This document shows, in pieces, positions 22,733 through 56,607 of a stretch of 64,000 nucleotides of DNA; position 1 is the stretch's first letter, and each line of letters begins with the position of its first letter. The DNA comes from a virus. Where the stretch lies: positions 96,001-160,000 of IMG/VR virus record IMGVR_UViG_3300045988_163643; one strand, written 5' to 3'. Under the pieces are notes generated by a model, which was not told the DNA's origin, searched no databases, and saw only the letters and a list, made by a program, of their open reading frames with translations. Made by a program: the position numbers and the translations under genes.

Positions 22733-23101
22733 TAATTGCCCCCTATGTTTATAAAAAACATAGCAAACCTTTTGAATTGCTGGAAACCCCTAAAGCTTAA
22801 CACACTACAACGTGGCTAGAAATGGCGAACGTGAATGTTACGAAAGTAGAAAAAAGTTGTTAAGATGATATATGGTTAAATCCTAAGTATCTACAATAAT
22901 GGGCAATCAGCAACTAAGATTCTAAGTGATGATTTGTCATATGAATAAAGTCCAACGACTAGATAGGAATATCGTACACTCAAGCGAGTGGAAGTGGAAG
23001 GTATCCTATAAATATAGGATAATGATATAGTCTAATCTCATATGAAAGTATGAGCAGTCGAAAGACGGTATGTATGTAGCGAATACATATGAATATAAAT
23101 G
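22733..23101 (+). mobile_element. group I intron, family 1, ORF-less (369 nt; boundaries +/-1)
   Basis: P1 GGGG(T)/(G)CCCC; conserved blocks AATTGCTGG, CCTAAAGC, GGTTAAATCCTAAG, CAACGACTAG, GATATAGTCT; helix CTTAACA/TGTTAAG; removal joins the two ORFs in frame (999 nt). Confidence 0.8.
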
Positions 23102-23618
23102 TTCTGATTTAGAGTTAGACGATTATATTTTTCTCGAAGATAGATATAATCAGATGCTTTTAGCCTATGATGATAAGAATCCTTCATCCCTGTGGTCATA
23201 TCAAGAAATATGTATGAATTATTTACTCCTTAGAAAAGATAGGGGAAATGTTCAACTTCAAAAAAGTATCCAAGAAATTAATAGTAAATTACAAGCAGAT
23301 TGTAAAATGAAGTTATCGCAAATAGATAATGATGATGATGATAATGCTTGTTTTGGAAAGTTTATAGATAAAATAGAATTATATGAACCATGTAATAAAA
23401 AATTACCATTCTTTGAAGATATAGATGGAATAAGACAATACTTAAAAAGATGGTTCGTTTTGCCTTTTGCGAAACAGTGGAAACTAGCTAAAAATGATGT
23501 ATTAGAAGGAGAGGAAGGAATAGAAGATTATGAGGATGTAGATAAAATATATAATGAACAAAATAAGAATAAAGCTGAAGTAGAGAATGAAGTAGGTGAG
23601 GAAGACAATGACAAGTAG
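23102..23618 (+). CDS. terS: putative terminase small subunit, exon 2 of 2
   Basis: in frame with exon 1 after intron removal; the ATG at 23070 in the ORF track lies inside the intron. Confidence 0.5.
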
Positions 23619-24158
23619 TGTAAAAGAAAATATTGAAGAAGAAAAAATACTTTCTGACGAAGTCATGAAAAGTCCTCATAAAAAAAGAAGAAATTTATCC
23701 CAAAGAAAAAAAGATAGATTAAATGAAGGTATGAAAATATGGACTGCATTTTATCGTTTGAATATCCATAGATTCGCACTGGATTTTTTGGGACTTAATT
23801 TATATCCGTTCCAAATTATATTGCTTTATATGATGAATATAATGTATAGCACTTGCCTAATATGTGCCAGAGGGTTATCGAAATCATATATGACAGCAAT
23901 ATTTCTTTGTTGTAAAGCAATATTATATCCAAATAGTTTAATTGTAGTTTCTTGTTCAACTAAGGAACAAGCCAGAAATCTTATAAAGGAGAAGATAGCT
24001 AAAGAACTATGTTCTCAGTCGAAAATGTTAAATAGAGAAATTGCTAAAGTAGTCACCGGTACTAATGAAACAGTGGTAATCTTCAATAACGGTAGTACTA
24101 TTCAAGCAGTAAATGCTTCTCAAAATACAAGAGGTCTTCGTTGCCATGTACTCGTGGT
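23608..24158 (+). CDS. terL: terminase large subunit, exon 1 of 3
   Basis: Walker-A-like region and ...RGLRCHVLVV ending just before the Walker B DE; ATG 23608 (or GTG 23596) after GGTGAGG. Confidence 0.8.
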
Positions 24159-24481
24159 AGTTATCTGCCTAGATATACATATATATAAAAGTATATCCGT
24201 AATTGGGTAAAATCGGTAAAAGCTAAGTTCTTATAGAATATGCCAATACCGAGTTAACTGATAAAATTAAAAAGTTATCAGCAATGTAGAGCATAGTAGG
24301 TGAACCTTGCGAACTATTATTAGATAGTTCTTTTTAATTGCAAGAATATAATCTTACCAAGAGTACCCAACACCTTATTGTATAAGGTGAAAATGTATGC
24401 CAAGCTTGTAGGAAACTATAAGAGGTGGATGTGTGAATTGACACACTATTAATAGATAAAAAGCTCCACGATAAAACTTTG
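24159..24481 (+). mobile_element. group I-type intron, family 2, ORF-less (323 nt)
   Basis: exon ends GTGGT, intron ends G; helices covary with its sister intron (TTGGGTA/TACCCAA, CTGATAA/TTATCAG, CTTGC/GCAAG); removal gives ...HVLVVDEYRMIQ. Confidence 0.75.
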
Positions 24482-24645
24482 AGATGAGTACAGAATGATA
24501 CAAGGAGGTTTTGATACTTTAAACTCAGTATTAAGACCATTCTTAAACTGTGTTAGAATACCAAAATTTAAAAATAGAGATGATGGAAAATACGCAGATT
24601 ATCCAACTGAGGAAAACCAAGAAATTTACTTAAGTAGTGCGTGGT
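24482..24645 (+). CDS. terL: terminase large subunit, exon 2 of 3 (164 nt)
   Basis: encodes (V)DEYRMIQGGFDTLNSVLRPFLNCVRIPKF...EIYLSSAW, carrying the Walker B DE missing from exon 1; not called by the ORF track. Confidence 0.75.
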
Positions 24646-24751
24646 AAATTCGTGCCACTTTATATAGCGATATATAAAACAAATTGGGCAAAATCGGTCA
24701 TAGTAAATCGTGAGATTAAGCTGATAAGAGAGACTAAGTATTGTTTAAAAT

Positions 24752-24780
24752 TTTACTTTTAATAAAAAATATAGTATAAT
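24752..24780 (+). promoter_or_regulatory. phage-consensus promoter inside the intron, driving the endonuclease
   Basis: TTTACT 24752-24757, 17-nt spacer, TATAAT 24775-24780. Confidence 0.55.
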
Positions 24781-24805
24781 ATAAGTAATGGGGGTGAATA
24801 TTAAA

Positions 24806-25537
24806 ATGAATAAAATAACTACAGAAATAGCATTAAAACGAATTAATGATAAAATAAAAGAAACTAATACAACATTATATGTTGTTAATTTTGAATATGT
24901 AAAAAAGAAAAGTATAATTTATATGAAATGTAGAGTATGTGGAAAAGAAGTTGAAAGAGATTATTGGAGATTTATTCATGCAGGTGGAAAATGTGAATGC
25001 CAATATAAATATAGAAGATGGACTGAAGAAAGATGCATAGAATTAATAAAAAATAATGATTATAATGATGAATATGAATTTGTAAATTTCAATACAGGAG
25101 CTAATATTACAATAAAACATAACATATGTAATCATGAATTTACTAGAGCTTCTTGGAATATAAAAGACAATGGTTTAAAATGTCCATCATGTTATCCACT
25201 TGATAGTGCAGGAGAATTGAATATTGAGAATTATTTAAAATCAAAAAATATTTTATATCAAAAACAGAAAAGATTTAAAGGATGTAAAAATAAAAAGACA
25301 TTACCATTTGATTTTTATTTACCACAATATAATTGTTGTATAGAATTCGATGGCGAACAACATTTTAAACCTGTCGAACACTTAGGTGGAGAAAAACACT
25401 ATAATAATACAGTCATAAATGATGGAATAAAAAATGAATTTTGTAGAAAAAATAATATACTTTTATTAAGAGTACCTTTTTATAAAATAAATGATGTAAA
25501 TGATATTATTGAAAATTTTTTAAACAATATAAGTTAA
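24806..25537 (+). CDS. intron-encoded homing endonuclease: 2 zinc-ribbon repeats plus a Vsr/DUF559-like nuclease domain
   Basis: C-terminal LPFDFYLPQYNCCIEFDGEQHF...ILLLRVPFY shared with three other intron ORFs; ATG 24806 matches the SD spacing of its paralogs (the ORF track starts at 24788). Confidence 0.7.
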   Translation: MNKITTEIALKRINDKIKETNTTLYVVNFEYVKKKSIIYMKCRVCGKEVERDYWRFIHAGGKCECQYKYRRWTEERCIELIKNNDYNDEYEFVNFNTGANITIKHNICNHEFTRASWNIKDNGLKCPSCYPLDSAGELNIENYLKSKNILYQKQKRFKGCKNKKTLPFDFYLPQYNCCIEFDGEQHFKPVEHLGGEKHYNNTVINDGIKNEFCRKNNILLLRVPFYKINDVNDIIENFLNNIS

Positions 25538-25777
25538 TACCGAGGTAAGATAGAAAATTAAAAAGTTCTATCCACCGTAACGCATAGAGATTGAACCTTT
25601 GTAAGAACTATTATATAATAGTTCTTTTTTGATTACAAAGAATAAAATATCTCCAAGAGTGCCCACTTCTATATTGTATAGAAGAAAATATATGCTGGAC
25701 TGGGTATGAATCGACATACCATAATGCGAGGAAACTCCCAGAACTAGAGGATAAAAAGCCTTTAGGGTAACAAAACG

Positions 25778-26862
25778 TTGAGAATCATTGGAGTTACGAC
25801 CTTTATTCTTCTCATGTTAAGAAAATGTTAGCAGGTGATGATTATTTTGTATGTAATCTACCTTATCAATTATCTGCCTATCATGGAATATTAACTAAAA
25901 AAAGAATACAAGATATTTTATCAGATGAGAATATGTCGGAAATATCATTTACAATGGAATTTGAAGCATTATTTTATTCTGATAAAGATACTAGTTATTT
26001 TAAATCAAGTGATATATTACCTTGTAGAACATTGGAATATGCATGGTATCCTCCAACACCAGAGGAATATTATAGAAATAAAAATAAAGAGAAAAAGAGT
26101 TATTATTTAAAGAGATTAAATGATAAAGAACTTAGAGTAATCAGTTGTGATATAGCTTTAATGAACAGTAAAAATGGGCATGACAATGATAATGCCGTAT
26201 TTACTTTTATAAGAAGTATTCCAAAGAATCAAAATTATATATCACAAGTTTTATGGCAACAGACTCACGAAGGATATAAAGCTAAGCAATTAGCATTAAA
26301 TATAAAAAGATTATATTTTGATACTCAAAGTGATTATATAGTACTAGATACTGCCGGTAGTGGTATATCTGTATTAGATGAGTTAGGTGAATACACAACT
26401 GATGTAGAAAGAGGAATAGTTTATCCTCCATTAAAAGCAATGAATGATGAAAAATATGAAGAACGTTGTGGTTATTCAGAAGCACAAAAATCTATATTTT
26501 GTGTTAATGGTAGTACAAAGTTTAACCATGAAATTGCAGTAACTCTTAAAACAGCATTCCAAAATAAAACCATTAGATTATTAAAAACACAATTTGAAGC
26601 AGATGATTTTATAGAGGGATATAATAAAATGTCTCCTAAAGAACAAGCTGATAAATTGATGCCTTATGTTCAAACTTCTTTAATGCAAGATGAAATAACT
26701 CAATTGGAATATGAAGTAAAAGATTCTTATATTAAACTTTATGAAACAACAGGTAAACGTAAAGATAGATATTCAAGTTTAGCTTATGGTAATTATTTTA
26801 TAAGAGAAAGAGAAAAAAAATTAAAGAAAAAGAAAAAAGGTGGATTAGCTAATCTATGGTAG
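25778..26862 (+). CDS. terL: terminase large subunit, exon 3 of 3 (nuclease half)
   Basis: junction gives SSAW-FENHWSYDLY; exons total 1,800 nt (599 aa); the ORF-track start 25825 is internal. Confidence 0.8.
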
Positions 26863-28641: not shown

Positions 28642-28660
28642 TTTGAAAGGAGGTGTAATT

Positions 28661-29216
28661 ATGGATAACAAGCTTAGACTACCTATTAAAAGATTTGAAA
28701 GTACAGATGAAGTTTTAGCTAATACAAATTTTAAAAAAGTTAAAATATACATTATGCATACAGGTGAAAATCTTAATCATTCTGTATTTTCATTAGATAG
28801 TATAAATGATTCAATAGATACACTTGCAAACATTCCAATATTGGCATTTGTTGAAAAAACTGATGGACAAGATAATAAAGATTTTGCAGGACATGAAACT
28901 GATTTAGATATATTCACAGATAAAGATGGAACAATTAAAGTAAGAGAATATTATAAAGAAGTACCTATTGGAGTAATACCTGAAAGTAATGAATATTTCT
29001 TTGAAGAAAAAGATGGAGAAACATACTTAGGGTGTTATGGTTACATATGGAAATGTTATTCTAATGATGCTTATGACATATTAGAAGAAGACCAAGAAAA
29101 AGAAGTTTCTATGGAAATTTATATAAATAATTGTTCTTATGATAGAAAACAAAGATGTAATATTAATAAATTTGAATTTCTTGGAGTAACAGTTTTAGGT
29201 GCAAAATATCCAGGAG
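28661..29216 (+). CDS. prohead scaffold/protease-like protein, exon 1 of 2
   Basis: ATG 28661 after GAAAGGAGGTG; lies between portal and capsid; the ORF-track tail 29217-29236 is intron read-through. Confidence 0.5.
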
Positions 29217-29623
29217 TAATTAGCTCCCTATATTAAGTGATTAGTATAGAAAATTCTCTGAATTGCTTGTAATCCCTAAAGTCAACTAAACTACAACGTG
29301 ATTGGAAACGATGAGCGTGAACGTGGCGAAAGCAGAAAAAATTAGTTGAATGGTATATGGTTAAACCCTAAGTACCATTGCAATGGGTGTCTAGCAGGTA
29401 AGATTCTAAGTTACTATATAAGTAATATGAATAAACTTCAACGACTATTGAAATAATTGTAAGAACCTTATTACAATTAAAGTAAAGTACTCTTAAGTAA
29501 GAGGAAGTAGAGAATGTCTTATTTAGTTAATGTAAGATAATGATATAGTCTCAACGTTTAGCGAAAGCTAAAGAAGTTCATAAGAGAACTGCGTAAGAAT
29601 AACGAACTTATGTGAAGATATTG
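29217..29623 (+). mobile_element. group I intron, family 1, ORF-less (407 nt)
   Basis: P1 GGAG(T)/(G)CTCC; family-1 core blocks; helix TCAACTA/TAGTTGA; 3' 80 nt almost identical to the intron at 46579-46914; removal restores the frame (1,770 nt). Confidence 0.8.
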
Positions 29624-30837
29624 CTATGGGGGAAGATTGTATACTTAGTATGAATTTTTCCAAAGAAGATGGTGAATATAAAGAATATTTATCTTCTGTT
29701 GAAAAATTAAATAAATTATTAAAATGTCAAAGAGAGGAGGGATTAAGTGTGGATGTAAATAAAGAAACTTCTACTGTTGAAAACAAAGAAGAATTTGCTG
29801 AAGAAAATAAAGACGAAGAAGTTTGTCCTACTTGTGGAAAAAATCCTTGCGAATGCAAAAAAGAAAATCATGCAGTTAATGATGATGAAGAAGATAAAGC
29901 AGATGACAAAGTAGATGATGATGAAGAAGATAAAGACAAGGATAAAGAAGATGAATCTTGCAAAAAGAAAAATCATGCAACTGAAGATAAAGCAGATGAT
30001 GATAAAAAAGAAGATAAAGAAGATGATGAATCTGACGATGACAAAGATAAAGAAGAAGATGATGATGATAAGTCAGATGAAGATGACAAAGATAAAGAAG
30101 ATGAATCTTGCAAAAAGAAAAATCATACAGTAGAAGATGACAAAGCAGACTTTGGACTTTCTTTAAATAATACATTTAAAGCCATAAGAAAGCAATTAGA
30201 ATCTTACACTTACGAATATGTGAGCTATTGGGGTGACACTTATACTTGGAGAAAATATTATGTAGTAGAATTAATCCCTGAAGATTCAGTTGTTGTTATA
30301 GAAGATGAAGAAGAAAATGAATTCTATGGAATAACTTATTCTATAAATAATGATGATGTTGCTTTAGATTTGGATAATAAAGTATTATATATTCAAGAAT
30401 GGAGAGCCAAAGAAACCAGTTCTGCTAGATTTGAAAATACTGATAAAAAAGAAAAATATACTACTAAAGATGAAGTATATCAAGCAGTTGGAAAAGAATT
30501 AAAAGAACTTAGACAATTTAAAGCTGATATAGAAGCTCAAGAAGAAAAAGCTCAATTCGATGAAAAAGTTAATACTATTTTATCACAATTTGAATTTAGT
30601 GAAGAAGAAACTTCTGATTTAGTAGAAAAAGTTTATAACAAATCAATTAATTTAGATATGTTTGAAACTTGCTTATTTGCTTTAGAAGCTAAAAAGAATA
30701 GAGCTGAAAAAGAAAAATTTGCTAAAATAGAAAAAGAAAACAGTTTAAATATAGTTGATTCTAAAAAAGAAGAACCAGCAAAACCAAAATCAAGATTTGA
30801 TTATCTATTAAAAGAATTTGGAAACAAAAATAAATAA
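29624..30837 (+). CDS. prohead scaffold/protease-like protein, exon 2 of 2
   Basis: acidic repeats carrying three ESCKKKNH motifs, then a coiled-coil C-terminus. Confidence 0.5.
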
Positions 30838-35907: not shown

Positions 35908-36052
35908 ATGGCTACACTTTTTGCTATAAAAGATGCTATAGATTTAAAAATAACTAAAAAAGGTGAACAAACAGTTTTCACTACAATAGACTACTTAAAT
36001 GACTGTCAAATAGAAATGGACTCAGAACAAGTATATGCACTTAAAAAAGGAG
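35908..36052 (+). CDS. major tail protein, exon 1 of 3
   Basis: ATG 35908 after AAGAAAGGTGA; not in the ORF track because an intron truncates it; MATLFAIKDAIDLKITKKGEQTVF... Confidence 0.6.
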
Positions 36053-45089: not shown

Positions 45090-45303
45090 TAACATACAGC
45101 CTCCTATATTAAGTAATTAGTATAGAAAATTTCTTTAATTGCTGGAAACTCCTAAAGCCTTACAAACTACAACGTAGAGTTAAAACTCAAGCGTGAATGT
45201 GGCGAAAGCAGAAAAAATTGTAAGGATTACCCAAGGTTAAATCCTAAAGGTGAATGAATGGACAATCAGCAGGTAAGATTCTAAATTAAATTATTTTAAA
45301 TAT

Positions 45304-45332
45304 TTGACTTTTAATAATAAAATGAGTATAAT
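45304..45332 (+). promoter_or_regulatory. phage-consensus promoter inside the intron
   Basis: TTGACT 45304-45309, 17-nt spacer, TATAAT 45327-45332. Confidence 0.55.
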
Positions 45333-45355
45333 ATAAGTAAAGTGAGGTGATTAAA

Positions 45356-46252
45356 ATGGGAAGAAAATGGGATTATGAAAAAGTTAAAGAATATATAGAA
45401 AATTTTAAATATAAATTATTAAGTGAGGAATACAAAAATAATAAAATTAAATTATTAATTAAATGTGATAAAGGACATGTATTTAAATGTTCATTTCATA
45501 ATTTTAAAGATAGAGACTCTAGATGTCCGTATTGTAATGGTAAAAAAATAACATATGATATGGTCAAGTTTTACATTGAATCTTACAATTATAAATTATT
45601 AAATGAAGATTATGTTGATAATTCTACTAAATTGTTAATAGAATGCGATAAAGGGCATACGTTTAAAATGCGATGGAATAATTTTCAACAAGGGCAAAGA
45701 TGTCCTATATGTGATAAAAGTCATAAAAAGAATTATAAAGATGTAAAAATAGAATTAGAAAAAGAAGGTTATGAATTAATATCGAGCAAATATAAGAATA
45801 GTAAAGAAAAATTATTAATCATGTGTCCTAATGGTCATACATATGAAACAAGTTGGAATAATTTTCAAAGAGGAAGAAGATGTCCAATGTGTAATATAAC
45901 AAAAGGAGAAAAAAAGATAAAAGAAATATTAGATAATAATAAAATAGAATATATGTATAATAAAAAATACTTTAAAGATTTAAAAGGAATAAATGGAGGA
46001 TTATTAAGACCAGACTTTGTAATACCATCATTAAGAATATGGATTGAATATGATGGTATACAACATTTTGAACCTAAAGATTTTGCTGGTAAAGGTGAAG
46101 AATGGGCTAAAAAAGAATTCGTTTTAAGAAAAATGAAAGATAAAATAAAAGATGAGTATGCTAAAGAACATGATTGGAAATTAATAAGAATACCTTATTG
46201 GGAATATGATAATATAGAAAACATATTAATAAAAGAATTAAATTTAAAATAA
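45356..46252 (+). CDS. intron-encoded homing endonuclease: 3 zinc-ribbon repeats plus a Vsr/DUF559-like nuclease domain
   Basis: repeats Y..VK.YIE...YKLL.E.Y.....KLLI.C..GH.F......F..G.RCP.C; RPDFVIPSLRIWIEYDGIQHF...WKLIRIPYWE. Confidence 0.7.
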   Translation: MGRKWDYEKVKEYIENFKYKLLSEEYKNNKIKLLIKCDKGHVFKCSFHNFKDRDSRCPYCNGKKITYDMVKFYIESYNYKLLNEDYVDNSTKLLIECDKGHTFKMRWNNFQQGQRCPICDKSHKKNYKDVKIELEKEGYELISSKYKNSKEKLLIMCPNGHTYETSWNNFQRGRRCPMCNITKGEKKIKEILDNNKIEYMYNKKYFKDLKGINGGLLRPDFVIPSLRIWIEYDGIQHFEPKDFAGKGEEWAKKEFVLRKMKDKIKDEYAKEHDWKLIRIPYWEYDNIENILIKELNLK

Positions 46253-46431
46253 TTTAACAAGAATAAACTTCAACGACTAGAACGCAAGTTCGTAGGGTGT
46301 AAGCGATTGACACTCGAAATGGGAAACAATCAAAAACGGGTTGATGATATAGTCTGCTCTCATGGGAAACCATGAGCAGTTTTCATATAAAGAAAACGGA
46401 TTAAGTGTAGCGAACTTAATTGAACAAGAGG

Positions 46432-46578
46432 CAATGGACTTGGTCAATTATGCAGGCAATAATTTTGCGATTTCATCTGATGGTGTAACAGAAGCATTAC
46501 AACGTGGTGGTTCTGTATTATCTAACTATGGAGTAGATTTAAAAGATTCTATCGCAATGATAACTGGGGCAAATGAGT
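46432..46578 (+). CDS. tape measure protein, exon 2 of 5 (147 nt)
   Basis: AMDLVNYAGNNFAISSDGVTEALQRGGSVLSNYGVDLKDSIAMITGANE, part of the conserved TMP core. Confidence 0.7.
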
Positions 46579-46914
46579 TAAATATGGCTCTTTTATATAG
46601 TAATATATAATTAAATTTTCTTGAATTGACAGGGACTCCCTTAGAGCTTTACACACTAACTTATGATAGAAATATACATAAGGGCATTGCTAACCACAAT
46701 GATATAGTAAAAGAGGTAAAGATTGGGAAATCTGCATCTAAGATTCTAAGTTGTGTAAACAATATGAATAAAGTTCAACGACTAAGTATCCTAGTAGTCT
46801 AGGTAGTGGGAAACCTCCTATTGAAGGAGGAAGATATAGTCTCAACGTTTAGTGAAAGCTAAAGAAGTTCATAAGAGAACTGCGTAAGAATAACGAACTT
46901 ATGTGAAGATATTG
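46579..46914 (+). mobile_element. group I intron, family 1, ORF-less (336 nt)
   Basis: P1 GAGT(T)/(G)GCTC; divergent 5' core (AATTGACAGGGACTCCCTTAGAGC); helix CTTTAC/GTAAAG; 3' end near-identical to the intron at 29217-29623. Confidence 0.75.
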
Positions 46915-49900
46915 CATTACAAGACCCCGCTCGTATAGGTAATGGGCTAAAATCTATAGCAATTAACCTTTCAGGTATTAAAACAAATGCCAAAACAGGT
47001 GCTCTTGAATTAAATAAAACAGCAAAAGCATTGCAAGAGACTGCTAAAATAGATATATTTACTGATAGTACTAAAACACAAGTTAAAGATATCGTTAGTA
47101 TAATGGATGAAGTAAAAGATAAATGGTCTTCTTTAACTGATGTTGAACAAAAAGGACTATCAGAAGCTATAGCTGGAAAAACCCAAGCCGGTGTATTCCA
47201 AGCATTAATGACAGGTTGGGAAAGAGTTCGTCAATATCAAAAAGAATACAATGAAGGTTGGATGATAGGTTCAGCTCAAAGAGAAAATGAAGTCTTTATG
47301 GACTCCATTGCTGGTAAATTTAATACTTTAAAAGAAAATCTTAAAGGATTATTAACTAGCAATGTTACAACAGATATGTTTAAAGGACTATTAGATGGTG
47401 CTAATAAAGTAGTAGAAGCAGTAGGAAAAATAAGTTCAAGCTTAGGTAGCATTGGTTCTGCTGGTGCATTAGTAGGTATTTCATCTTTCATAAAAACTTT
47501 ATCAAATTTAGATAAAGTTAAAACAATGGGAAGTGTATTTACTGGATTTGACAAAGTTTTAGGTGGGTTACAAGGTGCATCTGGTATTTCTGGTACAATT
47601 AGTACATTAACAGGTAGCTTTAAAGAATTAGGTGTTGGTGTAACTTTATCTAAAGTAGCATTAGGATTATTTAAAGGTGTACTAATGGGTATTGCATTTA
47701 CTGCTGTTGTTGCAGGAATAAGTGCTTGTGTAAAAGCATGGAACGATTATACTCATGCAACAGAAAACGCAGTAAAGGCTTCTAAAGAAAGACAAGATGG
47801 ATATAGAGATGAAGCACAAACTTTAAGTACTAAAAAATCAAGCCTACAAGAAATAGCTAAAGAATATGATAATTTAAATAATAAATCTGATAAAACTGCT
47901 GAAGATTTAACTAAATTAAATGAATTAAAACAACAAATAGGACAAATAGCTCCTGACCTTGTTAAAGGATATGATTCAGCAGGCAATCCAATATTAAACC
48001 TTACTACTAGTATGCAGGGTTATATAGCTGAATTAAATAAGGCAATTGCTAAACAACAAGAATTATATAACTATGAAACTAAAAAACAAGCACGAGAATA
48101 TATGAAGAAAAATGACACTAAAAATGGAGCTCAAGACCCAGAAAGAAATTCTTATGAAACTGAATTAAATAATCTTCAAAGTGCAAATGATAGAAAAACT
48201 AGAGAAGAAAAAAGATATACTGGTAGCTTAAAAAATATTATTAAAGATAGAAATAAATATAGAGAAGACCAAGAAAAAAGTATTAATGAAAGATTAGAAA
48301 GAATTAGAAATTCACAAACAGAAATTAATAATAGAGATGCTACACTTGAAGATAATTATGTTAATGAATTTAATAAGAAAACTAAATTAGCCGAAAAAGA
48401 ACAAAATAAATTTGCTACCTTTATGAAAGGGTTAAATTGGGGTACTTATGGTGAAGCAGAAGCCAATAGAATGGCTAATGGTTTACAAAAATTATCTGAA
48501 AAGACAGCATTTACAACTCAAGAGATGACAAAAGGATTATCAGGTAGCATGTCAAAAAAAGTTTCAGAAGAAATTTCTAAAGTAAATGCAGAATTCAAAA
48601 AAACAAATGCTATAAATGAATGGGGAAAAGGTTTAAGAAAAATAGCTAATGAAACAGGAAAATTTGATTTTTCAAATTGGAGTAATTACTTATCAGAAGT
48701 CCAAACTCGTTTTGAACAAGGAGTAAGTACTAATGAACAATATACACATTCATTAGGAATTATGGCTGATGCTATGGAAGATTTAACTGGTATAGATTCA
48801 GATGTATTCTTACCAGCTTTAAAAGGTGGAGCAGATTTAGAAGAAGCCTTTAAATCAGCAACTGAAGGTTTAAATGGTTTTATGAGTGCTTATGGTTCTT
48901 CTACTGCAAAATTACAACAAGGTGATTCATTTGCTAAAAAATTAGAATCTCAATTTAAAGAACTTCAAAATTTTGAAACTGAATTTGAAGGTCAATATGA
49001 GATGCAAGGTAAAGTTAGTGTAGATTGGTTAGTAGAACAAAAAGATAATGAAGATTTACCTAAACAATTAAGAACAATAATAGATGCAGTAACAAAAGAT
49101 GGAGAAGTAACAGAAGTAGAAGAAAAATTAGTATTAGCTTGTGAAACAGAAATAAAAGATAAAGGTAAATTACAACAAAGTACAATAGATGCAATAAATC
49201 AAGTAATGGACGGAACTTGGGATGTAAATAAAACTATTGAAATAGGTGGTATGGAATTTACATCATCTGAAATAAAAGAATTAATGTCATTAGCTGACCA
49301 ATTAGGTATATCTTTAGAAGGTTTAAATATTGGTGATACAGGATTAGACGGAGAAAACCAAAAAGCTCAAGCATTAAAAGATACAATAGATTCAATTACA
49401 GATAGAAATATAAAAGTAGCAATAGAAGCTGAAGGATTTGAAAATTCAGACCAAGTTAATAATATAATGTCAGTTGTTGACCAAATAGACGGAAAACAAG
49501 CTAAAGTTGATTTTATAGCAGATGCTTCTCAATATTTTAAGGAAAATGATAGTGTTGAATCAGCAATAAATGCTATGCCTGATGAGATAAAACTTAAATA
49601 TAATATTGGTGTTGAAGGTGATGAAAGACTAGAAGGAATACAAAGTAGACTTGAAAAATTACCAAAAGATATTAGAACTATGGTATATGCTCAAACATAT
49701 GGTGTTGAAAATGTTGAAATGCTAGAAAACATAGTAGATGCTTTTGGTGGAAAAACTGCAACAGCAATATTACAGTTAGATGGTATAGATGAAGCTCTTA
49801 GAAATGCTAGTACATTTGAAGAACAATTAAAAATAATTGGAGATTTTATATGTCAACCTGGAGTAGAAATAGAAGGTAAAGATGACATAATTAAAACAAT

Positions 49901-52900
49901 TGATGAAATATTAAAGAAGTTAAAAGAAACAGATGGGCAAGAAAGTAATCCTAAAATAAACGTAGAAGGAGATACTTCAGGTGCCGAGAAAGTAAAAAAA
50001 GAAGTAGATGAAGTAGGCAATAAAAAAGGGACAGCTAAAGCTGATGTAGATGGAGATACTTCAGGAGCTGAAAAAGTAGAAAAAGAAGTAGACAATGTAA
50101 ATGGAAAAAAAGGTACTGCTGAAGCAAATGTGGATGGCAATACTGAAGGTGCTGAAAAAGTAGAAAAAGAAGTAGACAATGTAAATGGGAAAAAAGGTAC
50201 TGCTAATGTAGATATTAAAGCAGATACCTCTGAAGCTGAAAAAGCTAAAAAAGAAGTAGATAATTTAGCAGTCAACAAAAATGGTACAGTTACTTTATTA
50301 GTAAATGGTCAAGAAAAAATAGCTGAAGCTAAAATTAATAAAGGTCAATTAGAAGTAAATGGTCAAGCAGTTACAACTATTTCTGTTAACGGTAAAGACC
50401 AATTACCAATAGCTATTAATGAAAAAGGTCAATTAGAAGTAAATGGTCAAGCTATAACTAATATAGATGTTAATGGTAAAGACCAATTAACTTTAGCTAG
50501 AAATGAAAAAGGTCAATTAGAAGTAAATGGTCAAGCTATAACTAATATAGATGTTAATGGTAAAGACCAATTAACTTTAGCTAGAAATGAAAAAGGTCAA
50601 TTAGAAGTAAATGGTCAAGCTATAACTAATATAGATGTTAATGGTAAAGAAAAAGTTTCTGAAGCAAAAAAAGAAGTTGATGATTTAACCAAAGATAATA
50701 AAAATGTTAGTATTAATATTGATGTTTCATTAAAAGAAACTGTTGGTGAAATATTATCAAGATTTGGATTAAATAAGAAAACAGAAAATGTTGAAATTAA
50801 TGTAACATGTAATGATAATGCAACTCCAGTATTAGAAAAAATAATGGCAAGACAAGATAAAACTATACAAATAAAAGTAGATTGTCAAGATAATGCAACT
50901 TCTAAAATAAACAATATAACTAAAATAGGAAATAAAACTGTAACAGTTACAATAAATTGTCAAGATAATGCAACTTCTAAAATAAATAGTATAGCTAGTA
51001 TGGGTAATAAATCTGTAACAGTTACTATAAATTGTCAAGACAACGCAAGTTCTACAATAAATAGAGTTACAAGTGCACCTTCTTCTAAAGCAATAAATGT
51101 TGTAGTAACTTGTACAAATGGTGGAGCAGTTCTTAATACTCTTTCTCAATTAGCTAGTAAAGTAATACCTAGTAAAAAATTTACTATAAATTGTACAGAT
51201 AGTGCTAGTAGTGTAGTAAGTAGAGTTAATGGTTTAAAAATATCTGATAAGAAATTTACTATAAATTGTACAGATAATGCAACTGCTAAAATAAATAAGG
51301 TTATTAGTAAAAAAATACCAAATAAATCATTTACTATAAGTTGTAATGATAATGCTAGTGGTAAATTAAGTAGTATTATAAGTAAAATAAGTAATATTCG
51401 TAGTAAATCAGTAACAATTACTACTAATCATGTAAGTACAGGTAAGAGTTCATCTATTGGTGAACCAACAGTTGTTGATTTACAACCTCAACCATTTAGT
51501 GCTCAAGCTTCTAATCCTCAAGTACAATCATTAGGAGAACAAGTTCAAGTATTAAATGATAGTGTGCAACAACAAACTGACAATAACAATGAAGTTAGTG
51601 TAATGGCTAAGAAGACATATAAAGCTAATATTGATACAGGTTTAACAGTAAGTGCAGTTAAATATAATATTGATTTATTAACTAACATGACTAATATGCT
51701 TAAAAAATTAGGAACTCAAGTTGATATATTAAAAGCTAAACAAGAAAGAACTTGGGGTACTGCAAGTGCTAAGTTACTTAGAAATCAAATTTCTTTACTA
51801 ACTAAACAACAAGATTTAACTAAAATAAATATTAAAAACATGGAAGGTATGGCTAAAAAACTTAAAGGTAGTTTACAAAAACAAGGATTTAAGTTTAAAG
51901 ATGACGGAACAATAAGTAATTACAATAGTAAACTTGTAAAAATGCAAAAAAATGTTGAAAGTTTAGAGAAAGCTGAAAAAGCACTAGAAGACCAAATAAG
52001 TAAAACTGAAAAACAAATTTCAAAATCTGAAAAGAAATCTTCAAGTAAGAAAAAATCAACTAGTAAGAAAAAGAAAAGTACTAGTAAGAAAAAGAGTACG
52101 AGCAAAAAGAAGAAAACTTCAAGTAAAAAGAAATCAACTAAGAAAAAGAGCACTAAGAAGAAAACTACTAAGAAGAAGAGTGCTAGTAGAAGCAATAGAA
52201 AAACTACATCAAGTAAAGCTAGTAAAAAGAAGACTACTAAGAAGAAAAAATCAACTAGTAAGAAAAAGAGTACATCAACTAAGAAGAAGAGTACTAAAAA
52301 GAGTACTAAAAAGAAAACTACTTCTAAGAAGAAATCAACCACTAAGAAGAAGAGTACATCTTCAAGCAAGAAATCAAAAGCAACTAAAGCATTAGAAAAG
52401 AAAAAGAGCGGATTAGAAAAGAAAAAGGATGCAATAAGCAAACAATTAGAAAAAGCACAAAAAGAATTATCAGAAACTCAAAGCAAATTAAATGAATATT
52501 ATAATTTACAATTTAGTGAAATTCCTGAAGCTCAACAACAATGGGAAGAATATGCTAATGCAATAGCTGAAGCTAAAGCAGAAATAATTAGATGTGAATT
52601 AGAAGCTAAAACATTCTTTAAGACAATTAAGATGGAAATGAAAGATGCTATGATTAGCAGAAATGAAACTTGGGCAGATACATTTATGTTGAAGGCTGAT
52701 TTAAGTAGTTGGTCTAAAGCAATAGGATATATTAAAGAAGCTAATAAATTATTAGCAAAAAATCAACAACATCAACAATCTAAATTAGAAACAGCTCAAG
52801 CAAGAGCGGAAGATAATAAAGCATTTTTAAAGAAACAAGGATTTAAATTTGATAAAAATGGATATGTAACAGGTGCTGAAAAAACTTTACAAAAACTTAA

Positions 52901-54402
52901 AAAGAAGAAATCATCACAAGAATACGATGCTATAAAAGAAGCATTTGATAGTTACGTTGATGATATGTATGAAAATATTCCTAAAGCTGAAAATGAATGG
53001 TGGAAATTAGAACAAGAAATAAAAGAAAATGAAAGACAAATAAAAGAAACTACTAAATCTATGAATGATTTAGTTAATTCAGCTAAAGTAGATAAATTAA
53101 CTAGACAATTTGATGTACTTTCAAATACTTTAGATATATTAGACCTTAAAATGGAACGTGCATATGGAGCTAATAAAATAGACTATATGAAACAACAACT
53201 TGATATATTATCTAATATGAAAAGTAAGAATCAAGAAATCATTAATCAAAATACTGAGTTATTAAATAATAGTAAGAAACAATTAGTTAAATATGGTGTT
53301 ACATTTGATGAAGATGGTAATATAGATAATCTATCAAAAGCATTGAAAAAATTAGATAATCTACAAGATATGGAAGATTTAAAAGATTTAGCTGATGAAT
53401 ATAATGATTACAAAGATTCAATAGATGATGCTAGTAAATCAATTGAAGAAGAAACTAATAAACAACTTGAATTAAAAGATTCAATGATGGAAATTAGAGA
53501 AGAAATGAGAAAACTTAGAGATGATGCATGGGTTAAAACTTATGAAAATGGTCTAAAAGTTATTCAAAATCGTATTGATACAATAGATTCTTTATTAGAT
53601 TTGGAAGATGAAAATCAATTTGGTTTACTAAATCAAAAAATTGAAGAATATAAGAATTTAACTAAAGCGACTGAGGATAGTTTGGCTTATCAAAAACATA
53701 GAAAAATCACTATGCAAAAAACATTGATTGATTATGGTTTCACTATTAATGATGATGGTACAATAGATGGAACTGCTAATAAATTAGAACAACTTAAAAA
53801 TACATTATCTGAAACTGAATTTGGTATAGTAAGTGATACATTAGAAGATTATTTTGATACTGCTTTAGATACAATTCCTGAATTAGAAAGAGAATTAATA
53901 AAATATCAAAAAGATTTAAAAGATATACAAAATACTAAACTAGAAAAGACTAAAACTATTGAAGAAAAAATTACTGAAATATATAATGATGAAATAGATA
54001 AAAGAACTAAAAAGATACAAGAAGAAGCAGAAACACAAACTAAAGCACTTAATAAAGCCAAAGAATCTTATCAGAGATGGAGAGACGAAGTTGACTATAA
54101 AGATGATTATAATAAACAATTAAAAACTGTTGAAGATTTACAAAAGAAAATAGAAATAGCAAAACGTGATGACAGCTTAACTGGACAAAAACGTTTAGCT
54201 GATTTGATGAAAGAATTAAAAGAAGAACAAGAAAATCTTGAAGATTTAGTTCAAGACAAAATAGATTCAGATATAAATAACATGTTTGATGACCAAATAG
54301 ATAAAATAGAAGAAAATTCTGATGAAGAAGTTAAGAATTTGGAAAAAACATGGTCAGAAAGCAAAATAGCTGAAATGGTTAAACAAGCACTTGATACTGG
54401 AG
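46915..54402 (+). CDS. tape measure protein, exon 3 of 5
   Basis: begins (S)LQDPARIGNGLKSIAINLSG..., the conserved TMP core; hydrophobic Gly-rich segment; several repeat arrays; the ORF-track start 47031 is internal. Confidence 0.8.
49961..50270 (+). repeat. about four imperfect 75-84-nt coding repeats
   Basis: encode (V/A)DGDTSGAEKVEKEVDNVNGKKGTA units. Confidence 0.6.
50337..50650 (+). repeat. 84-nt tandem repeat, 2 perfect copies plus a near-complete third and one degenerate leading copy
   Basis: GAAAAAGGTCAATTAGAAGTAAATGGTCAAGCTATAACTAATATAGATGTTAATGGTAAAGACCAATTAACTTTAGCTAGAAAT at 50421, 50505 and 50589 (third copy truncated). Confidence 0.85.
50790..51430 (+). repeat. about 8 diverged coding repeats (INCxDNAxxKIN units)
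   Basis: recurrent VTVTINCQDNATSKIN / FTINCTDNATAKIN peptides. Confidence 0.6.
52020..52430 (+). repeat. low-complexity Lys/Ser/Thr tract (about 125 aa) inside the tape measure
   Basis: SKKKSTSKKKKSTSKKKSTSKKKKTSSKKKSTKKK... Confidence 0.8.
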
Positions 54403-54749
54403 TAAATTAGCTCCTTTTACTAAGTAATTAGTATTAAAACTCATTGAATTGCTGGAACTTCCTAAAGCTAACTAAACTACAATATGGCTAGAAATGGCGA
54501 ATATGAATGTGGCGAAAGCAGAAAAAATTAGTTAGATATTCATATGGTTAAATCCTAAGTGAATGTAAATGGATAATCAGCAGGGAAGTCCCTTTAAAAT
54601 GGGAAACCTTCAACGACTATATATACTAGTAGTCTAGTTAGTGGTGAGCATCCTTATAGGATGATGATATAGTCTACTCTCATGTGAAAGCATGAGCAGT
54701 TCATAAGAGAACGGTATAAGGTTTAACGAACTTTATATGAATGTTAAGG
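54403..54749 (+). mobile_element. group I intron, family 1, ORF-less (347 nt)
   Basis: P1 GGAG(T)/(G)CTCC; core blocks; helix CTAACT/AGTTAG. Confidence 0.8.
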
Positions 54750-54840
54750 TGTTTACAGATATCGATGGGAATATAAAAACTCTTCAAACAGCATTAATGG
54801 ATTTTGCTAATGAAAGTTCTGATTATTTTGGAGTTATGGG
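54750..54840 (+). CDS. tape measure protein, exon 4 of 5 (91-nt micro-exon)
   Basis: encodes (V)FTDIDGNIKTLQTALMDFANESSDYFGVMG; open only in this frame; not in the ORF track. Confidence 0.65.
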
Positions 54841-55051
54841 TAATGTTGCCCTAGTCGTAGAGTAATTTGCGACTGAAAATAGATTTAATTGCAGGTAATT
54901 CCTAAAGCCTTACACCACAAGTATTCTGAAAAGAGATACTGAAGGTACGAAAGTAGAAAAAACGTAAGGATGAATATAAGGTTAAACCCTAAGTATTCGT
55001 AATAATGGATGTTCATGCAGGTAAGATTCTAAATTAAATTATTTTAAATAT

Positions 55052-55080
55052 TTGACTTTTAATAATAAAATGAGTATAAT
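55052..55080 (+). promoter_or_regulatory. phage-consensus promoter inside the intron
   Basis: TTGACT 55052-55057, 17-nt spacer, TATAAT 55075-55080; surrounding sequence identical to 45268-45345. Confidence 0.55.
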
Positions 55081-55102
55081 ATAAGTAAAGCGAGGTGATT
55101 AA

Positions 55103-56431
55103 ATGGCAAAAAGAAAAAGATATACATATCAAGATGTTAAAAATATTGTTGAAAATGAAAATTATGAATTAATAAGTACAGAAAATGAAATTATTGATGA
55201 AAAGGGATTTGTTAAAACATCAACTAAAATAACAGTATGGTGTAAAAATGAAAATCATAATTATATAAAACCTCAATTAAGTAAGTTTCTCAAAGGGGGT
55301 AGATGTGGAAAGTGCAGAAATGATAATAAAAAACTTGATTATAAATATGTAAAAGAATATGTTGAATCATTTGGATATAAATTATTATCAAAAGAGTATA
55401 AAAATAATTCAACGGATTTGTTAATTGAATGTCCATTAGAACATAAGTTTAAAATGATTTTTAATAATTTTAAAAAAGGACAAAGATGTCCCAAATGTGG
55501 TGAAATAAAAAGAAGAGAAAAAAGAACGATATGGAATAAAGAAAAAATAATTAATTTTGTGAAAAATAGTAATTATGAATTTATCAAATTTGTTAAATTT
55601 GACAAATTAAACTCAAGAATATTAATAAAATGTAATAATAAAAAACATGAGTCATATGAAGTTACTTTTGCTAATTTTAAAAATGGAAAAAGATGTCCGT
55701 ACTGTTCTAATCATGTAAAATTTGATTATAAATATGTAAAAGAATATATTGAATCATTTGGATACAAGTTATTATCAAAAGAATATAAAAATACAAATGA
55801 ATATATTTTAATAAAATGCCCTGATGAAAATCATAAACCTTATTTAGTTAAATTTTCTTCTTTTAAAAATCAAGAAACTAGATGTCCTTATTGTCAAAAT
55901 AAAAAAAGAGGATTATATAGAAAGTTTGATTATAAATATGTAAAAGAATATGTTGAATCATTTGGATATAAATTGTTATCAAAAGAATATAAAAATTGTG
56001 ATGAAAAACTAAAAATAGAATGTAATAAAGGACATATTTATGAAGTATCTTTTTATTGTTTTAAAAATTTAAATACAAGATGTCCTATATGTAATGAGAG
56101 CAAGGGAGAAATAAAAATAAGAGAGATACTTAATAAATATGATATAAAATTTACTCCTCAAAAGAAATATAGTAAATTAATTGGAATTAAAGGCAGACAA
56201 TTGTCTTATGATTTTTATTTACCTTTATATAACACATTGATAGAATATCAAGGAGAATATCATGATGGTACGGGATATAATCAAACTAAAGAAAAATTTG
56301 AAACCCAAAAAGAACACGATAAAAGAAAAAGAAATTACGCTAAAGACAATAACATAAAATTATTAGAAATATGGTATTATGATTTTGATAATATAGAAAA
56401 TATATTAATAAAAGAATTGAATTTAAAATAA
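55103..56431 (+). CDS. intron-encoded homing endonuclease: 5 zinc-ribbon repeats plus a Vsr/DUF559-like nuclease domain
   Basis: five (F)DYKYVKEY(V/I)ESFGYKLLSKEYKN...C....H......F.....RCP.C units; SYDFYLPLYNTLIEYQGEYHD...IKLLEIWYYD. Confidence 0.7.
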   Translation: MAKRKRYTYQDVKNIVENENYELISTENEIIDEKGFVKTSTKITVWCKNENHNYIKPQLSKFLKGGRCGKCRNDNKKLDYKYVKEYVESFGYKLLSKEYKNNSTDLLIECPLEHKFKMIFNNFKKGQRCPKCGEIKRREKRTIWNKEKIINFVKNSNYEFIKFVKFDKLNSRILIKCNNKKHESYEVTFANFKNGKRCPYCSNHVKFDYKYVKEYIESFGYKLLSKEYKNTNEYILIKCPDENHKPYLVKFSSFKNQETRCPYCQNKKRGLYRKFDYKYVKEYVESFGYKLLSKEYKNCDEKLKIECNKGHIYEVSFYCFKNLNTRCPICNESKGEIKIREILNKYDIKFTPQKKYSKLIGIKGRQLSYDFYLPLYNTLIEYQGEYHDGTGYNQTKEKFETQKEHDKRKRNYAKDNNIKLLEIWYYDFDNIENILIKELNLK

Positions 56432-56607
56432 TTTAACAAGAATAAACTTCAACGACTAGAACGCAAGTTCGTAGGGTGTAAGCGATTGACACTCGAAAAG
56501 GTCTACCCTTAATATTAAGGTGAAGAAATAGTCTAGTCACTCTAGGAAACTAGGTGCTTAGAATTAACTAAGGTTTATAGTGTAGCGACTATAAATAAAT
56601 ATTAACG

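What the first reader, a model, noticed from the sequence alone, without database searches (positions are those of the whole stretch)
22733..56607. Ten group-I-type introns (about 7.8 kb) split five morphogenesis genes within 34 kb
terS (1 intron), terL (2), scaffold (1), major tail (2) and tape measure (4) are each called as fragments by the ORF track. Eight insertions share conserved blocks: AAUUGCWGG, CCUAAAGC, GGUUAAAUCCUAAG, CAGCAGGUAAGAUUCUAA, AAUAAACUUCAACGACUA, GAUAUAGUCU and a GYAGCGAA-loop hairpin. They also show covarying helices. P1 covaries: GGGG/CCCC, GGAG/CUCC, GAGG/CCUC, GGG/CCC. The helix after CCUAAAG has a different sequence in most copies: CUUAACA/UGUUAAG, UCAACUA/UAGUUGA, CUCAAUU/AAUUGAG, CCUUAC(A)/(U)GUAAGG, CUUUAC/GUAAAG, CUAACU/AGUUAG. 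The two terL insertions form a second family with their own covariation. Excising all ten restores every frame exactly: 999, 1,800, 1,770, 552 and 13,152 nt. In terL it also rejoins the Walker B motif (VLVV-DEYR). Multi-intron phages are known (T4, Twort, SPO1 relatives). This density, with four introns in a single tape measure gene and introns in terS and a scaffold gene, is exceptional.
Basis: partly seen in the sequence, partly recalled or inferred. Interest (0 to 1): 0.8.

Follow-up and report, generated by a model that had tools for sequence, protein, structure and literature searches.

The report
Ten self-splicing introns in phage genes
Five essential virion and DNA-packaging genes of an uncultured SPbeta-like phage are split by ten mobile group I introns, the densest cluster I could find for a phage, and most of them appear to be cut one base away from the canonical 5' splice site.

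Summary
Ten insertions between 22733 and 56607 total 7,806 nt, 23% of the span. They split terS, terL, a YonD-like scaffold gene, the tail-tube gene and a 4,383-aa tape measure gene. Excising them gives ORFs of 999, 1,800, 1,770, 552 and 13,152 nt.

Eight form family A. All five ORF-less copies match Rfam RF00028 end to end, four above threshold. Over 21 copies, 91% of cells pair and 49 of 72 pairs show compensatory changes.

The two terL introns form family B. It has no Rfam hit but the same group I core topology, with a covarying P3 and an invariant P7.

Four introns carry endonuclease genes behind phage-type promoters.

Relatives 90-96% identical lack terS, terL2, TMP1 and TMP4 exactly at the predicted junctions. 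They carry introns at about a dozen other sites; one has 11 in 21 kb, seven of them in terL. An intron-free relative is gaplessly colinear across six junctions.

These are new members of a known kind at exceptional local density. One point is unexplained. In 7 of 8 family A copies no register gives both a U before the 5' splice site and a terminal G. Splicing itself remains untested.

The parts
22251..22732 (+). terS-like gene, exon 1
   Evidence: ORF frame. Contiguous with exon 2 in the intronless allele L009. PHROG 3314 for the spliced product.
22733..23101 (+). Family A group I intron in terS (369 nt, no ORF)
   Evidence: RF00028 85.3 bits over model positions 1-253. Absent in L009. Boundaries.
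23102..23618 (+). terS-like gene, exon 2
   Evidence: Matches the L019 133-aa ORF.
23596..24158 (+). terL exon 1 (first ATG at 23608); ends ...HVLVV
   Evidence: Colinear with the L019 TerL of 599 aa.
24159..24481 (+). Family B group I-like intron terL1 (323 nt, no ORF); splits Walker B
   Evidence: U(-1).G in P1 and a terminal G. Covarying core. Absent in L004-L008. No Rfam hit.
24482..24645 (+). terL exon 2 (DEYR...LSSAW)
24646..25777 (+). Family B intron terL2 (1,132 nt), endonuclease ORF inside the P4 helix (P5-equivalent loop)
   Evidence: Absent in L003 with a precise junction. P4 strands lie 847 nt apart. Covariation.
24755..24780 (+). Promoter-like site for the terL2 intron ORF
   Evidence: ACTTTTAAnAA-N9-TATAAT, 0 mismatches.
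24788..25537 (+). Intron-encoded endonuclease ORF (249 aa)
   Evidence: PHROG 559, 9084 and 7140, annotated as endonucleases, E 4e-50.
25778..26862 (+). terL exon 3
   Evidence: Single-piece tblastn hits in phiCD211-like and SPbeta-like phages.
28643..29216 (+). Scaffold-like (YonD-type) gene, exon 1 (ATG at 28661)
   Evidence: PHROG 3313.
29217..29623 (+). Family A intron in the scaffold-like gene (407 nt)
   Evidence: RF00028 53.7 bits. Intron-free homologues L007 and L019 read PAAMG and PGAMG.
29624..30837 (+). Scaffold-like gene, exon 2
35908..36052 (+). Tail tube (YomU-like) exon 1
36053..37418 (+). Family A intron tail1 (1,366 nt), ORF in the P6 loop
   Evidence: nhmmer halves E 7e-48 and 4e-35. 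Intron-free L019 reads AAAGGAG|ATAAC at the nucleotide level.
36258..36283 (+). Promoter-like site for the tail1 intron ORF
36308..37249 (+). Intron-encoded endonuclease ORF (313 aa)
   Evidence: PHROG 559 E 4.5e-64. Pfam CapR domain.
37419..37566 (+). Tail tube exon 2
37567..37983 (+). Family A intron tail2 (417 nt)
   Evidence: RF00028 41.0 bits, E 4e-9, below the gathering score of 50. nhmmer E 1.5e-42 and 1.9e-38.
37984..38242 (+). Tail tube exon 3
39974..45089 (+). Tape measure exon 1
45090..46431 (+). Family A intron TMP1 (1,342 nt), ORF in the P6 loop
   Evidence: Absent in L011, which reads ...ACTGAAGCGATGGAT....
45307..45332 (+). Promoter-like site for the TMP1 intron ORF
45347..46252 (+). 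Intron-encoded endonuclease ORF (301 aa)
   Evidence: PHROG 559 E 1.4e-72. Pfam DUF4379 and CapR.
46432..46578 (+). Tape measure exon 2 (147 nt)
   Evidence: Lies inside the TIGR01760 match.
46579..46914 (+). Family A intron TMP2 (336 nt); the only window copy with U at -1
   Evidence: RF00028 63.2 bits. Frame analysis.
46915..54402 (+). Tape measure exon 3
54403..54749 (+). Family A intron TMP3 (347 nt)
   Evidence: RF00028 91.0 bits.
54750..54840 (+). Tape measure exon 4 (91 nt)
54841..56607 (+). Family A intron TMP4 (1,767 nt), ORF in the P6 loop
   Evidence: Absent in L011-L014, which read ...ATGGGTGATTCA....
55055..55080 (+). Promoter-like site for the TMP4 intron ORF
55103..56431 (+). 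Intron-encoded endonuclease ORF (442 aa)
   Evidence: PHROG 559 E 1.8e-89.
56608..56917 (+). Tape measure exon 5

Best explanation
The window comes from an uncultured, 26.5% G+C, SPbeta-like/phiCD211-like large siphophage. Related contigs are 173-204 kb.

Ten mobile group I introns of two IA-type families sit in five late genes that the phage cannot do without.

Inferred mechanism, not shown here:
- Each late transcript folds into the ribozyme core (P3-P9, with P7.1/P7.2).
- It excises its intron by the two guanosine-dependent transesterifications.
- That restores the mRNAs for TerS, TerL, the scaffold-like protein, the tail tube and the 4,383-aa tape measure.

Four introns carry an endonuclease gene in a peripheral loop. 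In family A the gene sits in the P6 loop. In family B it sits between the two P4 strands. Each gene has its own phage-type promoter and ribosome-binding site.

During mixed infection these enzymes would cut intronless alleles of related phages, and repair would copy the intron in (homing).

Shown: the ribozyme structure, the exact restoration of every reading frame, and a patchwork of intron presence and absence among 90-96% identical phages.

Inferred: catalysis, endonuclease activity and homing.
For: - Rfam RF00028 matches all five ORF-less family A copies over the full model: 85.3, 53.7, 41.0, 63.2 and 91.0 bits.
- Family A covariation: 91.4% of cells paired, 49 of 72 pairs with changes on both sides. 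P3 (columns 77-83 with 389-395) has up to 4 pair types per position. Slid controls give 33-43%.
- Family B: P3 covaries at 6 of 6 pairs, P4 and P7 are invariant, and the strand order is P3-P4-P6-P7-P7.1-P3'-P8-P7'. Both window copies, and two relatives' copies read by eye (L009_9663, L011_8210), have U(-1).G in P1 and a terminal G.
- Intronless alleles with precise junctions: terS in L009; TMP1 in L011; TMP4 in L011-L014; terL2 in L003; both terL introns in L004.
- The intron-free relative L019 aligns without gaps at CHVLVV|DEYR, SSAW|FENHW, PG|AMG, KKG|DNY and NQ|SYT.
- TerL gives single-piece hits covering 90-94% of the query in SPbeta and phiCD211 phages.
- TIGR01760 spans TMP junctions 1 and 2.
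- Relatives carry the same two families at sites that are empty here: in terS, at five further terL sites, in the portal gene, in the major capsid gene and at five further TMP sites.
- The intron ORFs match phage endonuclease families.
- Each intron ORF follows a promoter motif found 13 times against 2.0 expected.
Against: - There is no transcript or biochemical evidence.
- Family B fails the only curated model, and its P4 and P7 never vary, so they add no covariation.
- The whole-window Rfam scan at default filters found only one of the ten.
- In 7 of 8 family A copies the junction forced by intronless alleles puts G, not the canonical U, at -1. Efficient self-splicing therefore cannot be assumed.
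- Half of the tested Bastillevirinae introns spliced only in infected cells (PMC11878797).
Confidence: 0.9

Rival explanations
1. The introns are real but are not autonomous ribozymes in vivo. They need a phage or host protein, or only splice in infected cells. The non-canonical 5' splice site may be tolerated only with such help.
For: Four of eight spliced Bastillevirinae introns spliced only in infected cells (PMC11878797). Seven of eight family A copies lack U at -1.
Against: The catalytic core helices are intact and covary. No maturase-like ORF is present in six of the ten. The same 5' architecture occurs in the cultured Bacillus phage vB_BceH_LY2.
Confidence: 0.25
2. Family B, the two terL insertions, is not a group I intron. 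It would be another structured mobile insertion removed in some other way.
For: No Rfam match at E up to 1 on an 1.8 kb stretch. Only weak similarity to unannotated regions of a few phages. P4 and P7 are invariant and therefore uninformative.
Against: The helix order and the P3/P7 pseudoknot are those of group I. The P7 strands AACG-CAUA / UAUGC mirror family A's AACG-ACUA / UAGUC. A U.G pair closes the exon part of P1 and a G ends the intron in all four copies examined. The insertions are precisely absent in relatives. An endonuclease ORF sits in a loop.
Confidence: 0.07
3. The genes are dead. This would be a decaying prophage whose structural genes have been disrupted by repeated insertion elements that are never removed.
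For: Every interrupted ORF runs into a stop codon shortly inside the insertion.
Against: All ten excisions restore frames with no gap against intron-free homologues. Exons show synonymous-type divergence from relatives. The ribozyme helices are kept by compensatory changes. Several independent 173-204 kb contigs share the arrangement.
Confidence: 0.02
4. Assembly artefact: repeated elements were wrongly threaded into the genes by the assembler.
For: The introns are dispersed repeats 70-90% alike. Homologues of the capsid gene lie mostly on short contigs.
Against: Each copy has its own internal guide sequence matching its own exon. Insertion points are base-precise and frame-restoring. The scaffold, TMP2 and TMP3 introns recur at the same sites in independent contigs.
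Confidence: 0.01

Closest known systems
Staphylococcus phage Twort orf142 (tail tube) introns I1-I3, subgroup IA2
   Same: Several group I introns lie in one tail tube gene. Family A shares sequence with Twortvirinae tail tube introns, up to about 77% identity over about 70% of the terS intron. It shares P7.1/P7.2 and the P9.2 G(U/A)A(G/A)CGA hairpin.
   Different: The Twort introns have U at -1 and G at the 3' end; I reconstructed this from the 142-aa product. Seven of eight family A copies here do not have U at -1. Twort has no tape measure, terS or scaffold introns.
Bacillus phage vB_BceH_LY2 (Bastillevirinae) portal intron
   Same: It is the best database match to family A, at 71% identity over 82% of the intron. 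It has the same P1 design, GGAG|UAAC...ACAG-CUCC. Its junction also places G at -1: the intronless phages Janet and Riley read NGAWK.
   Different: It is a single intron in a portal gene of a myovirus and carries two 'transposase' ORFs. It is not annotated as an intron.
Jug (jumbo gut) phages and crAss-like phages
   Same: Uncultured gut phages whose essential genes, terL included, are fragmented by many group I introns with homing endonucleases. Some splicing is confirmed by metatranscriptomes (PMC12880540; PMC7886860).
   Different: Jug phages average 18.5 introns per 360-402 kb, their introns average about 206 nt, and terL is in 2-3 pieces. Here there are 10 in 34 kb, each 323-1,767 nt, and terL of a relative is in 8 pieces. 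The host lineage is different (Bacteroidota against a low-G+C Firmicute-type phage).
Staphylococcus phages Romulus/Remus and the jumbo phages MarsHill/Madawaska/Machias; Bacillus phage AR9
   Same: These are multi-intron phages with introns in terL and in a scaffold/prohead protease gene. The Romulus/Remus terL introns carry EDxHD-type endonucleases (PMC11878797 Table S1).
   Different: Table S1 lists 6 to 13 split genes for these entries, spread over 140-270 kb genomes and mostly in nucleic-acid metabolism or RNA polymerase genes. None is in a tape measure gene.
T4 td, nrdB and nrdD introns and PhiPA3 gp210 (intron endonuclease as an anti-competitor weapon)
   Same: The model of homing during co-infection, with intron endonuclease genes driven by their own promoters. 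Endonuclease-mediated interference between related phages is described in PMC11878797.
   Different: Those cases have one to three introns in nucleotide-metabolism or RNA polymerase genes. No activity data exist for the endonucleases here.

Membership tests
Group I intron (family A, 8 copies) | Score at or above the curated threshold of the Rfam covariance model RF00028 | tested here: met
   Full-length matches (model positions 1-253) for all five ORF-less copies: 85.3, 53.7, 63.2 and 91.0 bits, and 41.0 bits for tail2, which is below the threshold of 50. The three ORF-bearing copies match the family profile in both halves at E 1e-32 or better.
Group I intron (family A) | Conserved core P3-P9 with the P3/P7 pseudoknot, supported by covariation | tested here: met
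   72 pairs in 14 helices, 91.4% of cells paired. P3 has 5 of 7 pairs with changes on both sides. P7 is 100% paired. 0 of 500 shuffles are as high.
Group I intron (family A) | U at the last exon position, forming a U.G wobble with the internal guide sequence | tested here: not met
   Only TMP2 has U at -1. Scaffold, tail1 and TMP1 have G at -1 unambiguously. terS, tail2, TMP3 and TMP4 can have U at -1 only if the intron then ends in U. A U.G pair exists, but its U is the first intron base.
Group I intron (family A and B) | G as the last intron nucleotide | tested here: met
   All ten end in G at the junction that restores the intronless sequence.
Group I intron (family A and B) | Guanosine-dependent self-splicing | not testable with these tools
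   Needs in vitro transcription and splicing, or cDNA.
Group I intron, subgroup IA | Extra helices P7.1/P7.2 between P7 and the 3' strand of P3 | tested here: met
   In family A, P7.1 has 4 of 4 pairs with compensatory change and P7.2 is visible in the alignments. In family B, a covarying stem follows P7 (helix 5, 4 of 5 pairs) and encloses a conserved hairpin. No formal subgroup model was run.
Group I intron (family B, 2 copies) | Rfam RF00028 match | tested here: not met
   No match at E up to 1 on 24100-25900.
Group I intron (family B) | Core helix order with the P3/P7 pseudoknot; U.G at the 5' splice site | tested here: met
   The order is P3-P4-P6-P7-P7.1-P3'-P8-P7'. P3 covaries at 6 of 6 pairs. 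96.7% of cells are paired against 35-46% slid. P1 reads GGU|AG...CU-GCC for terL1 and GUGGU|...GCCAC for terL2. P4 and P7 are invariant, so they say nothing either way.
Mobile (homing) intron | Presence/absence polymorphism at identical sites among close relatives, with an endonuclease gene in a peripheral loop | tested here: met
   Intronless alleles exist for terS, terL1, terL2, scaffold, TMP1 and TMP4. Extra introns lie at about a dozen other sites in relatives. Four ORFs match PHROG endonuclease families. Cleavage activity was not tested.
EDxHD / Vsr-like PD-(D/E)XK homing endonucleases | Vsr-like nuclease fold and catalytic motif | tested here: inconclusive
   The conserved C-terminal motif is LPFDFYLP...IEYDGEQHF. 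Its best PDB profile match is the N-terminal domain of AbaSI at E 0.07; that this domain is Vsr-like is from my own memory. Pfam finds only CapR and treble-clef zinc-finger domains. The AlphaFold model has pLDDT 69 and gave no meaningful fold match.

The most novel reading that the evidence does not exclude
Family A would be a group I lineage that does not use the 'completely conserved' U(-1).G pair. The exon's last base would be Watson-Crick paired: G in most copies, A or C in some. The conserved U.G wobble would sit one position downstream, at the first intron base, so the ribozyme would cleave 5' rather than 3' of the wobble U.

The lineage has spread to at least 20 sites in the packaging and virion genes of one phage clade, where it may act as an arms race between co-infecting relatives.
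Probability: 0.5. Interest if true: 0.8.

Novelty: new member of a known kind. Interest (0 to 1): 0.62.

Why it matters
- It shows how far selfish introns can load a phage's late genes. Introns make up 23% of a 34 kb morphogenesis block, and relatives carry up to seven in terL.
- The near-identical relatives, each with a different intron set, form a natural system for studying homing, intron gain and loss, and phage-phage competition.
- It is a practical warning. Default Rfam scanning found 1 of 10, and gene callers report fragments.
- If the shifted 5' splice site is real, it contradicts a filter used to build current group I intron databases. One such database requires U before the intron (PMC11835236). 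The finding would then bear on how the ribozyme chooses its cleavage site.

Tried and rejected
- The whole-window Rfam scan with gathering thresholds found only the terS intron.
- The 'evalue' scan of 20000-60000 listed no group I hit at all, not even that one. Short stretches were needed.
- Megablast of 22-30 kb against GenBank phages gave no match.
- Choosing splice sites from frame plus 'U before, G at the end' failed. The junctions had to come from intronless alleles.
- My first crude junction finder was noisy above 2 mismatches.
- I did not build a covariance model, because the introns approach the 400-column limit and would have exceeded the calibration time limit. I used nhmmer profiles instead.
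- Endonuclease classification: a PDB sequence search gave nothing, the profile gave only a weak AbaSI hit, and the fold search on a pLDDT-69 model was meaningless.
- I looked for cDNA-validated boundaries of related Bastillevirinae introns in the one further supplement part I read, and found none.
- Rejected: inteins (stops in all frames, RNA covariation); translational bypass (insertions of 323-1,767 nt with ribozyme structure); group II introns (wrong size and structure, no reverse transcriptase).

Full report
**What is there.** ORF listing shows five + strand genes broken into fragments between 22.2 and 56.9 kb. Reading the gaps and fixing boundaries from intronless relatives gives ten insertions, listed with coordinates in the observation check and in the parts list. 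They range from 323 to 1,767 nt and total 7,806 nt, which is 23% of the span 22733-56607.

**Family A (eight copies).**
- Profile searches find exactly eight 5' halves and eight 3' halves in the 64 kb, all on the + strand.
- The default whole-window Rfam scan reported only the terS copy, at 85.3 bits. On short stretches all five ORF-less copies match RF00028 over the full model: TMP3 91.0, TMP2 63.2, scaffold 53.7 and tail2 41.0 bits.
- I aligned 21 non-redundant copies from the window and related contigs. A hand-drawn P2-P9.2 structure with the P3/P7 pseudoknot gives 91.4% of cells paired, against 33-43% when partners are slid. 49 of 72 pairs change on both sides, and 0 of 500 shuffles reach the observed values.
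- The long-range P3 has up to four pair types per position. P7.1, P8, P9 and P9.2 covary heavily.
- P7.1/P7.2, together with blastn similarity to Twortvirinae, Bacillus and Clostridium phage introns, place family A among the IA-type phage introns.

**Family B (the two terL insertions).** Rfam finds nothing. Database similarity is weak and falls on unannotated regions. Ten copies from the window and relatives nevertheless share this order of elements:
- P3 (UGGGYA/URCCCA);
- P4 (UCGGU/ACCGA);
- a hairpin, then P7 (GCAUA/UAUGC, preceded by AACG as in family A);
- a P7.1-type insertion, then the P3 3' strand, P8 and the P7 3' strand.

That is the group I core topology. 96.7% of cells pair, against 35-46% slid. 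P3 covaries at 6 of 6 pairs. P4 and P7 never vary, so they are uninformative. Both window copies have a canonical U.G at the 5' splice site and end in G.

**Evidence that the insertions are removable and mobile.** IMG/VR holds four contigs of 173-204 kb with 96% identical TerL, plus a 68% identical group.
- L009 lacks the terS intron.
- L011 lacks TMP1.
- L011-L014 lack TMP4.
- L003 lacks terL2.
- L004 lacks both terL introns.

Each case has base-precise junctions and synonymous-type differences nearby.

Conversely, the relatives carry family A or B introns at sites that are empty in the window: in terS, at five more terL sites, in the portal gene (window 27798), in the capsid gene (31868) and at five more tape measure sites. 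L001 has 11 introns in 21 kb, seven of them in terL.

An intron-free relative is gaplessly colinear with the spliced TerL (70% identity, both junctions), the scaffold-like protein and the tail tube (both junctions). This is L019, an ENA contig whose capsid protein is 69% identical. TerL also gives single-piece hits in phiCD211-like and SPbeta-like phages. TIGR01760 runs across TMP junctions 1 and 2.

**Gene identities.**
- TerL and the portal protein are supported by PHROGs.
- The structural module is SPbeta-like: YonB capsid, YonD, YomU tube. The 'major tail' gene is therefore the tail tube.
- The 'terS' and 'scaffold' labels are positional; their PHROGs (3314 and 3313) have no known function.

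**Intron ORFs.** Four introns carry ORFs of 249-442 aa.
- They match PHROGs 559, 9084 and 7140, all annotated as endonucleases.
- They have repeated treble-clef zinc-finger modules.
- They share a conserved C-terminal motif, LPFDFYLP...IEYDGEQHF.
- A weak profile match to the N-terminal domain of AbaSI (E 0.07) hints at an EDxHD/PD-(D/E)XK-type nuclease. That this AbaSI domain is Vsr-like is from my own memory. The fold search was uninformative.
- Each ORF follows ACTTTTAAnAA-N9-TATAAT and a GGAGG-like ribosome-binding site. The motif occurs 13 times against 2.0 expected, and the other nine sites mostly lie upstream of non-structural ORFs. The endonuclease genes therefore look independently transcribed. 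This is an inference.

**An unexplained detail.** In family A the exon strand of P1 (GGGG, GGAG, GAGG, GGG, AAAG) is followed by a U that pairs with a G just 5' of the guide sequence. By analogy with other group I introns that U should be the last exon base. The intronless and intron-free alleles show otherwise:
- scaffold reads CCAGGAG|CUAUGG, against L019 CCAGGGGCTATGG;
- tail1 reads AAAGGAG|AUAAC, against L019 AAAGGAGATAAC;
- TMP1 reads ACAGAGG|CAAUGG, against L011 ACTGAAGCGATGG.

So the U is the first intron base, the exon ends in G paired with C, and the intron ends in G.
- For terS, tail2, TMP3 and TMP4 the 3' exon starts with U. The register is ambiguous, but U at -1 would then force a terminal U.
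- Only TMP2 (GAGU|UAAAU) is canonical.
- Relatives show the same pattern, with G, A or C at -1.
- So does the portal intron of the cultured Bacillus phage vB_BceH_LY2, where the intronless phages Janet and Riley read NGAWK.
- Twort orf142 I1-I3 and family B are canonical.

A recent intron database treats the U as completely conserved and discards candidates without it (PMC11835236). Either this lineage cleaves one position upstream of the wobble U, or its 3' site is non-canonical. cDNA would decide.

**Comparison with what is known.**
- Phage group I introns are well known, and most lie in nucleotide-metabolism genes.
- The survey table in PMC11878797 lists 13 split genes for the three Staphylococcus jumbo phages together, 7 for Romulus/Remus and 6 for AR9, and none in a tape measure gene.
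- Jug phages average 18.5 small introns per 360-402 kb (PMC12880540).
- This case is therefore a new member of a known kind. It stands out for local density, for four introns in one tape measure gene, for a second family invisible to Rfam, and for the splice-site anomaly.
- My literature searches found no description of this clade. They cover open-access papers only.

Noticed in passing
window 43, 1555, 4676(-), 7590, 14107, 14161, 16077, 20703, 24755, 36258, 45307, 55055: The promoter-like motif ACTTTTAAnAA-N9-TATAAT occurs 13 times against 2.0 expected. It precedes each of the four intron endonuclease ORFs as well as non-structural phage ORFs. The intron ORFs therefore seem to use the phage's own, probably early, promoter type inside late genes.
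   Followed up: partly
window 39974-56917 (spliced): The tape measure protein is 4,383 aa, which implies a tail of roughly 650 nm at about 1.5 Angstrom per residue. It contains 84-nt and 75-nt tandem repeat arrays at 49951-51387.
   Followed up: no
L001 1-21035 (IMGVR_UViG_3300045988_156249): This relative, with 96% identical TerL, has 11 introns in 21 kb. terL is split by seven (four of family A, three of family B), and there is one each in terS, portal, scaffold and the capsid gene.
   Followed up: partly
L012 6356-7115: In a relative's tape measure gene, a family B intron and a family A intron lie in tandem, apparently separated by a micro-exon of about 12 nt.
   Followed up: no
L022 (Bacillus phage vB_BceH_LY2, 110563-114842) and L017 (Clostridium phage D-1873): The closest GenBank relatives of family A are unannotated or oddly placed. 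The LY2 portal gene is split by an intron carrying two 'transposase' ORFs. The C. botulinum phage copy lies next to an IS-type transposase. Both look like IStron-type arrangements.
   Followed up: partly
window 20000-60000: The Rfam 'evalue' run on 40 kb listed no Intron_gpI hit, although the 'gathering' run found one at 85 bits and short-stretch runs found four more. Filter behaviour makes large-window scans unreliable for these introns.
   Followed up: yes
window 17403-18554 and 4439-5138: Two stretches of 1.15 kb and 0.7 kb have no ORF of 100 aa or more. Rfam at E up to 1 found nothing in the first. The second holds a minus-strand copy of the promoter motif.
   Followed up: partly
window 29217, 36053, 54403: Three family A introns (scaffold, tail1, TMP3) share the same exon/guide pairing, GGAG / GCUCC. 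Two exons are very short (TMP exon 4 is 91 nt, TMP exon 2 is 147 nt). Mis-pairing or exon skipping of the kind reported for Twort orf142 is conceivable.
   Followed up: no
window 31418-32431 homologues: Most of the 161 capsid-protein homologues in public metagenomes lie on contigs of a few kb. That would fit assemblies breaking at repeated introns. One NCBI hit is labelled as a Peptostreptococcaceae MAG, a weak hint at the host.
   Followed up: no
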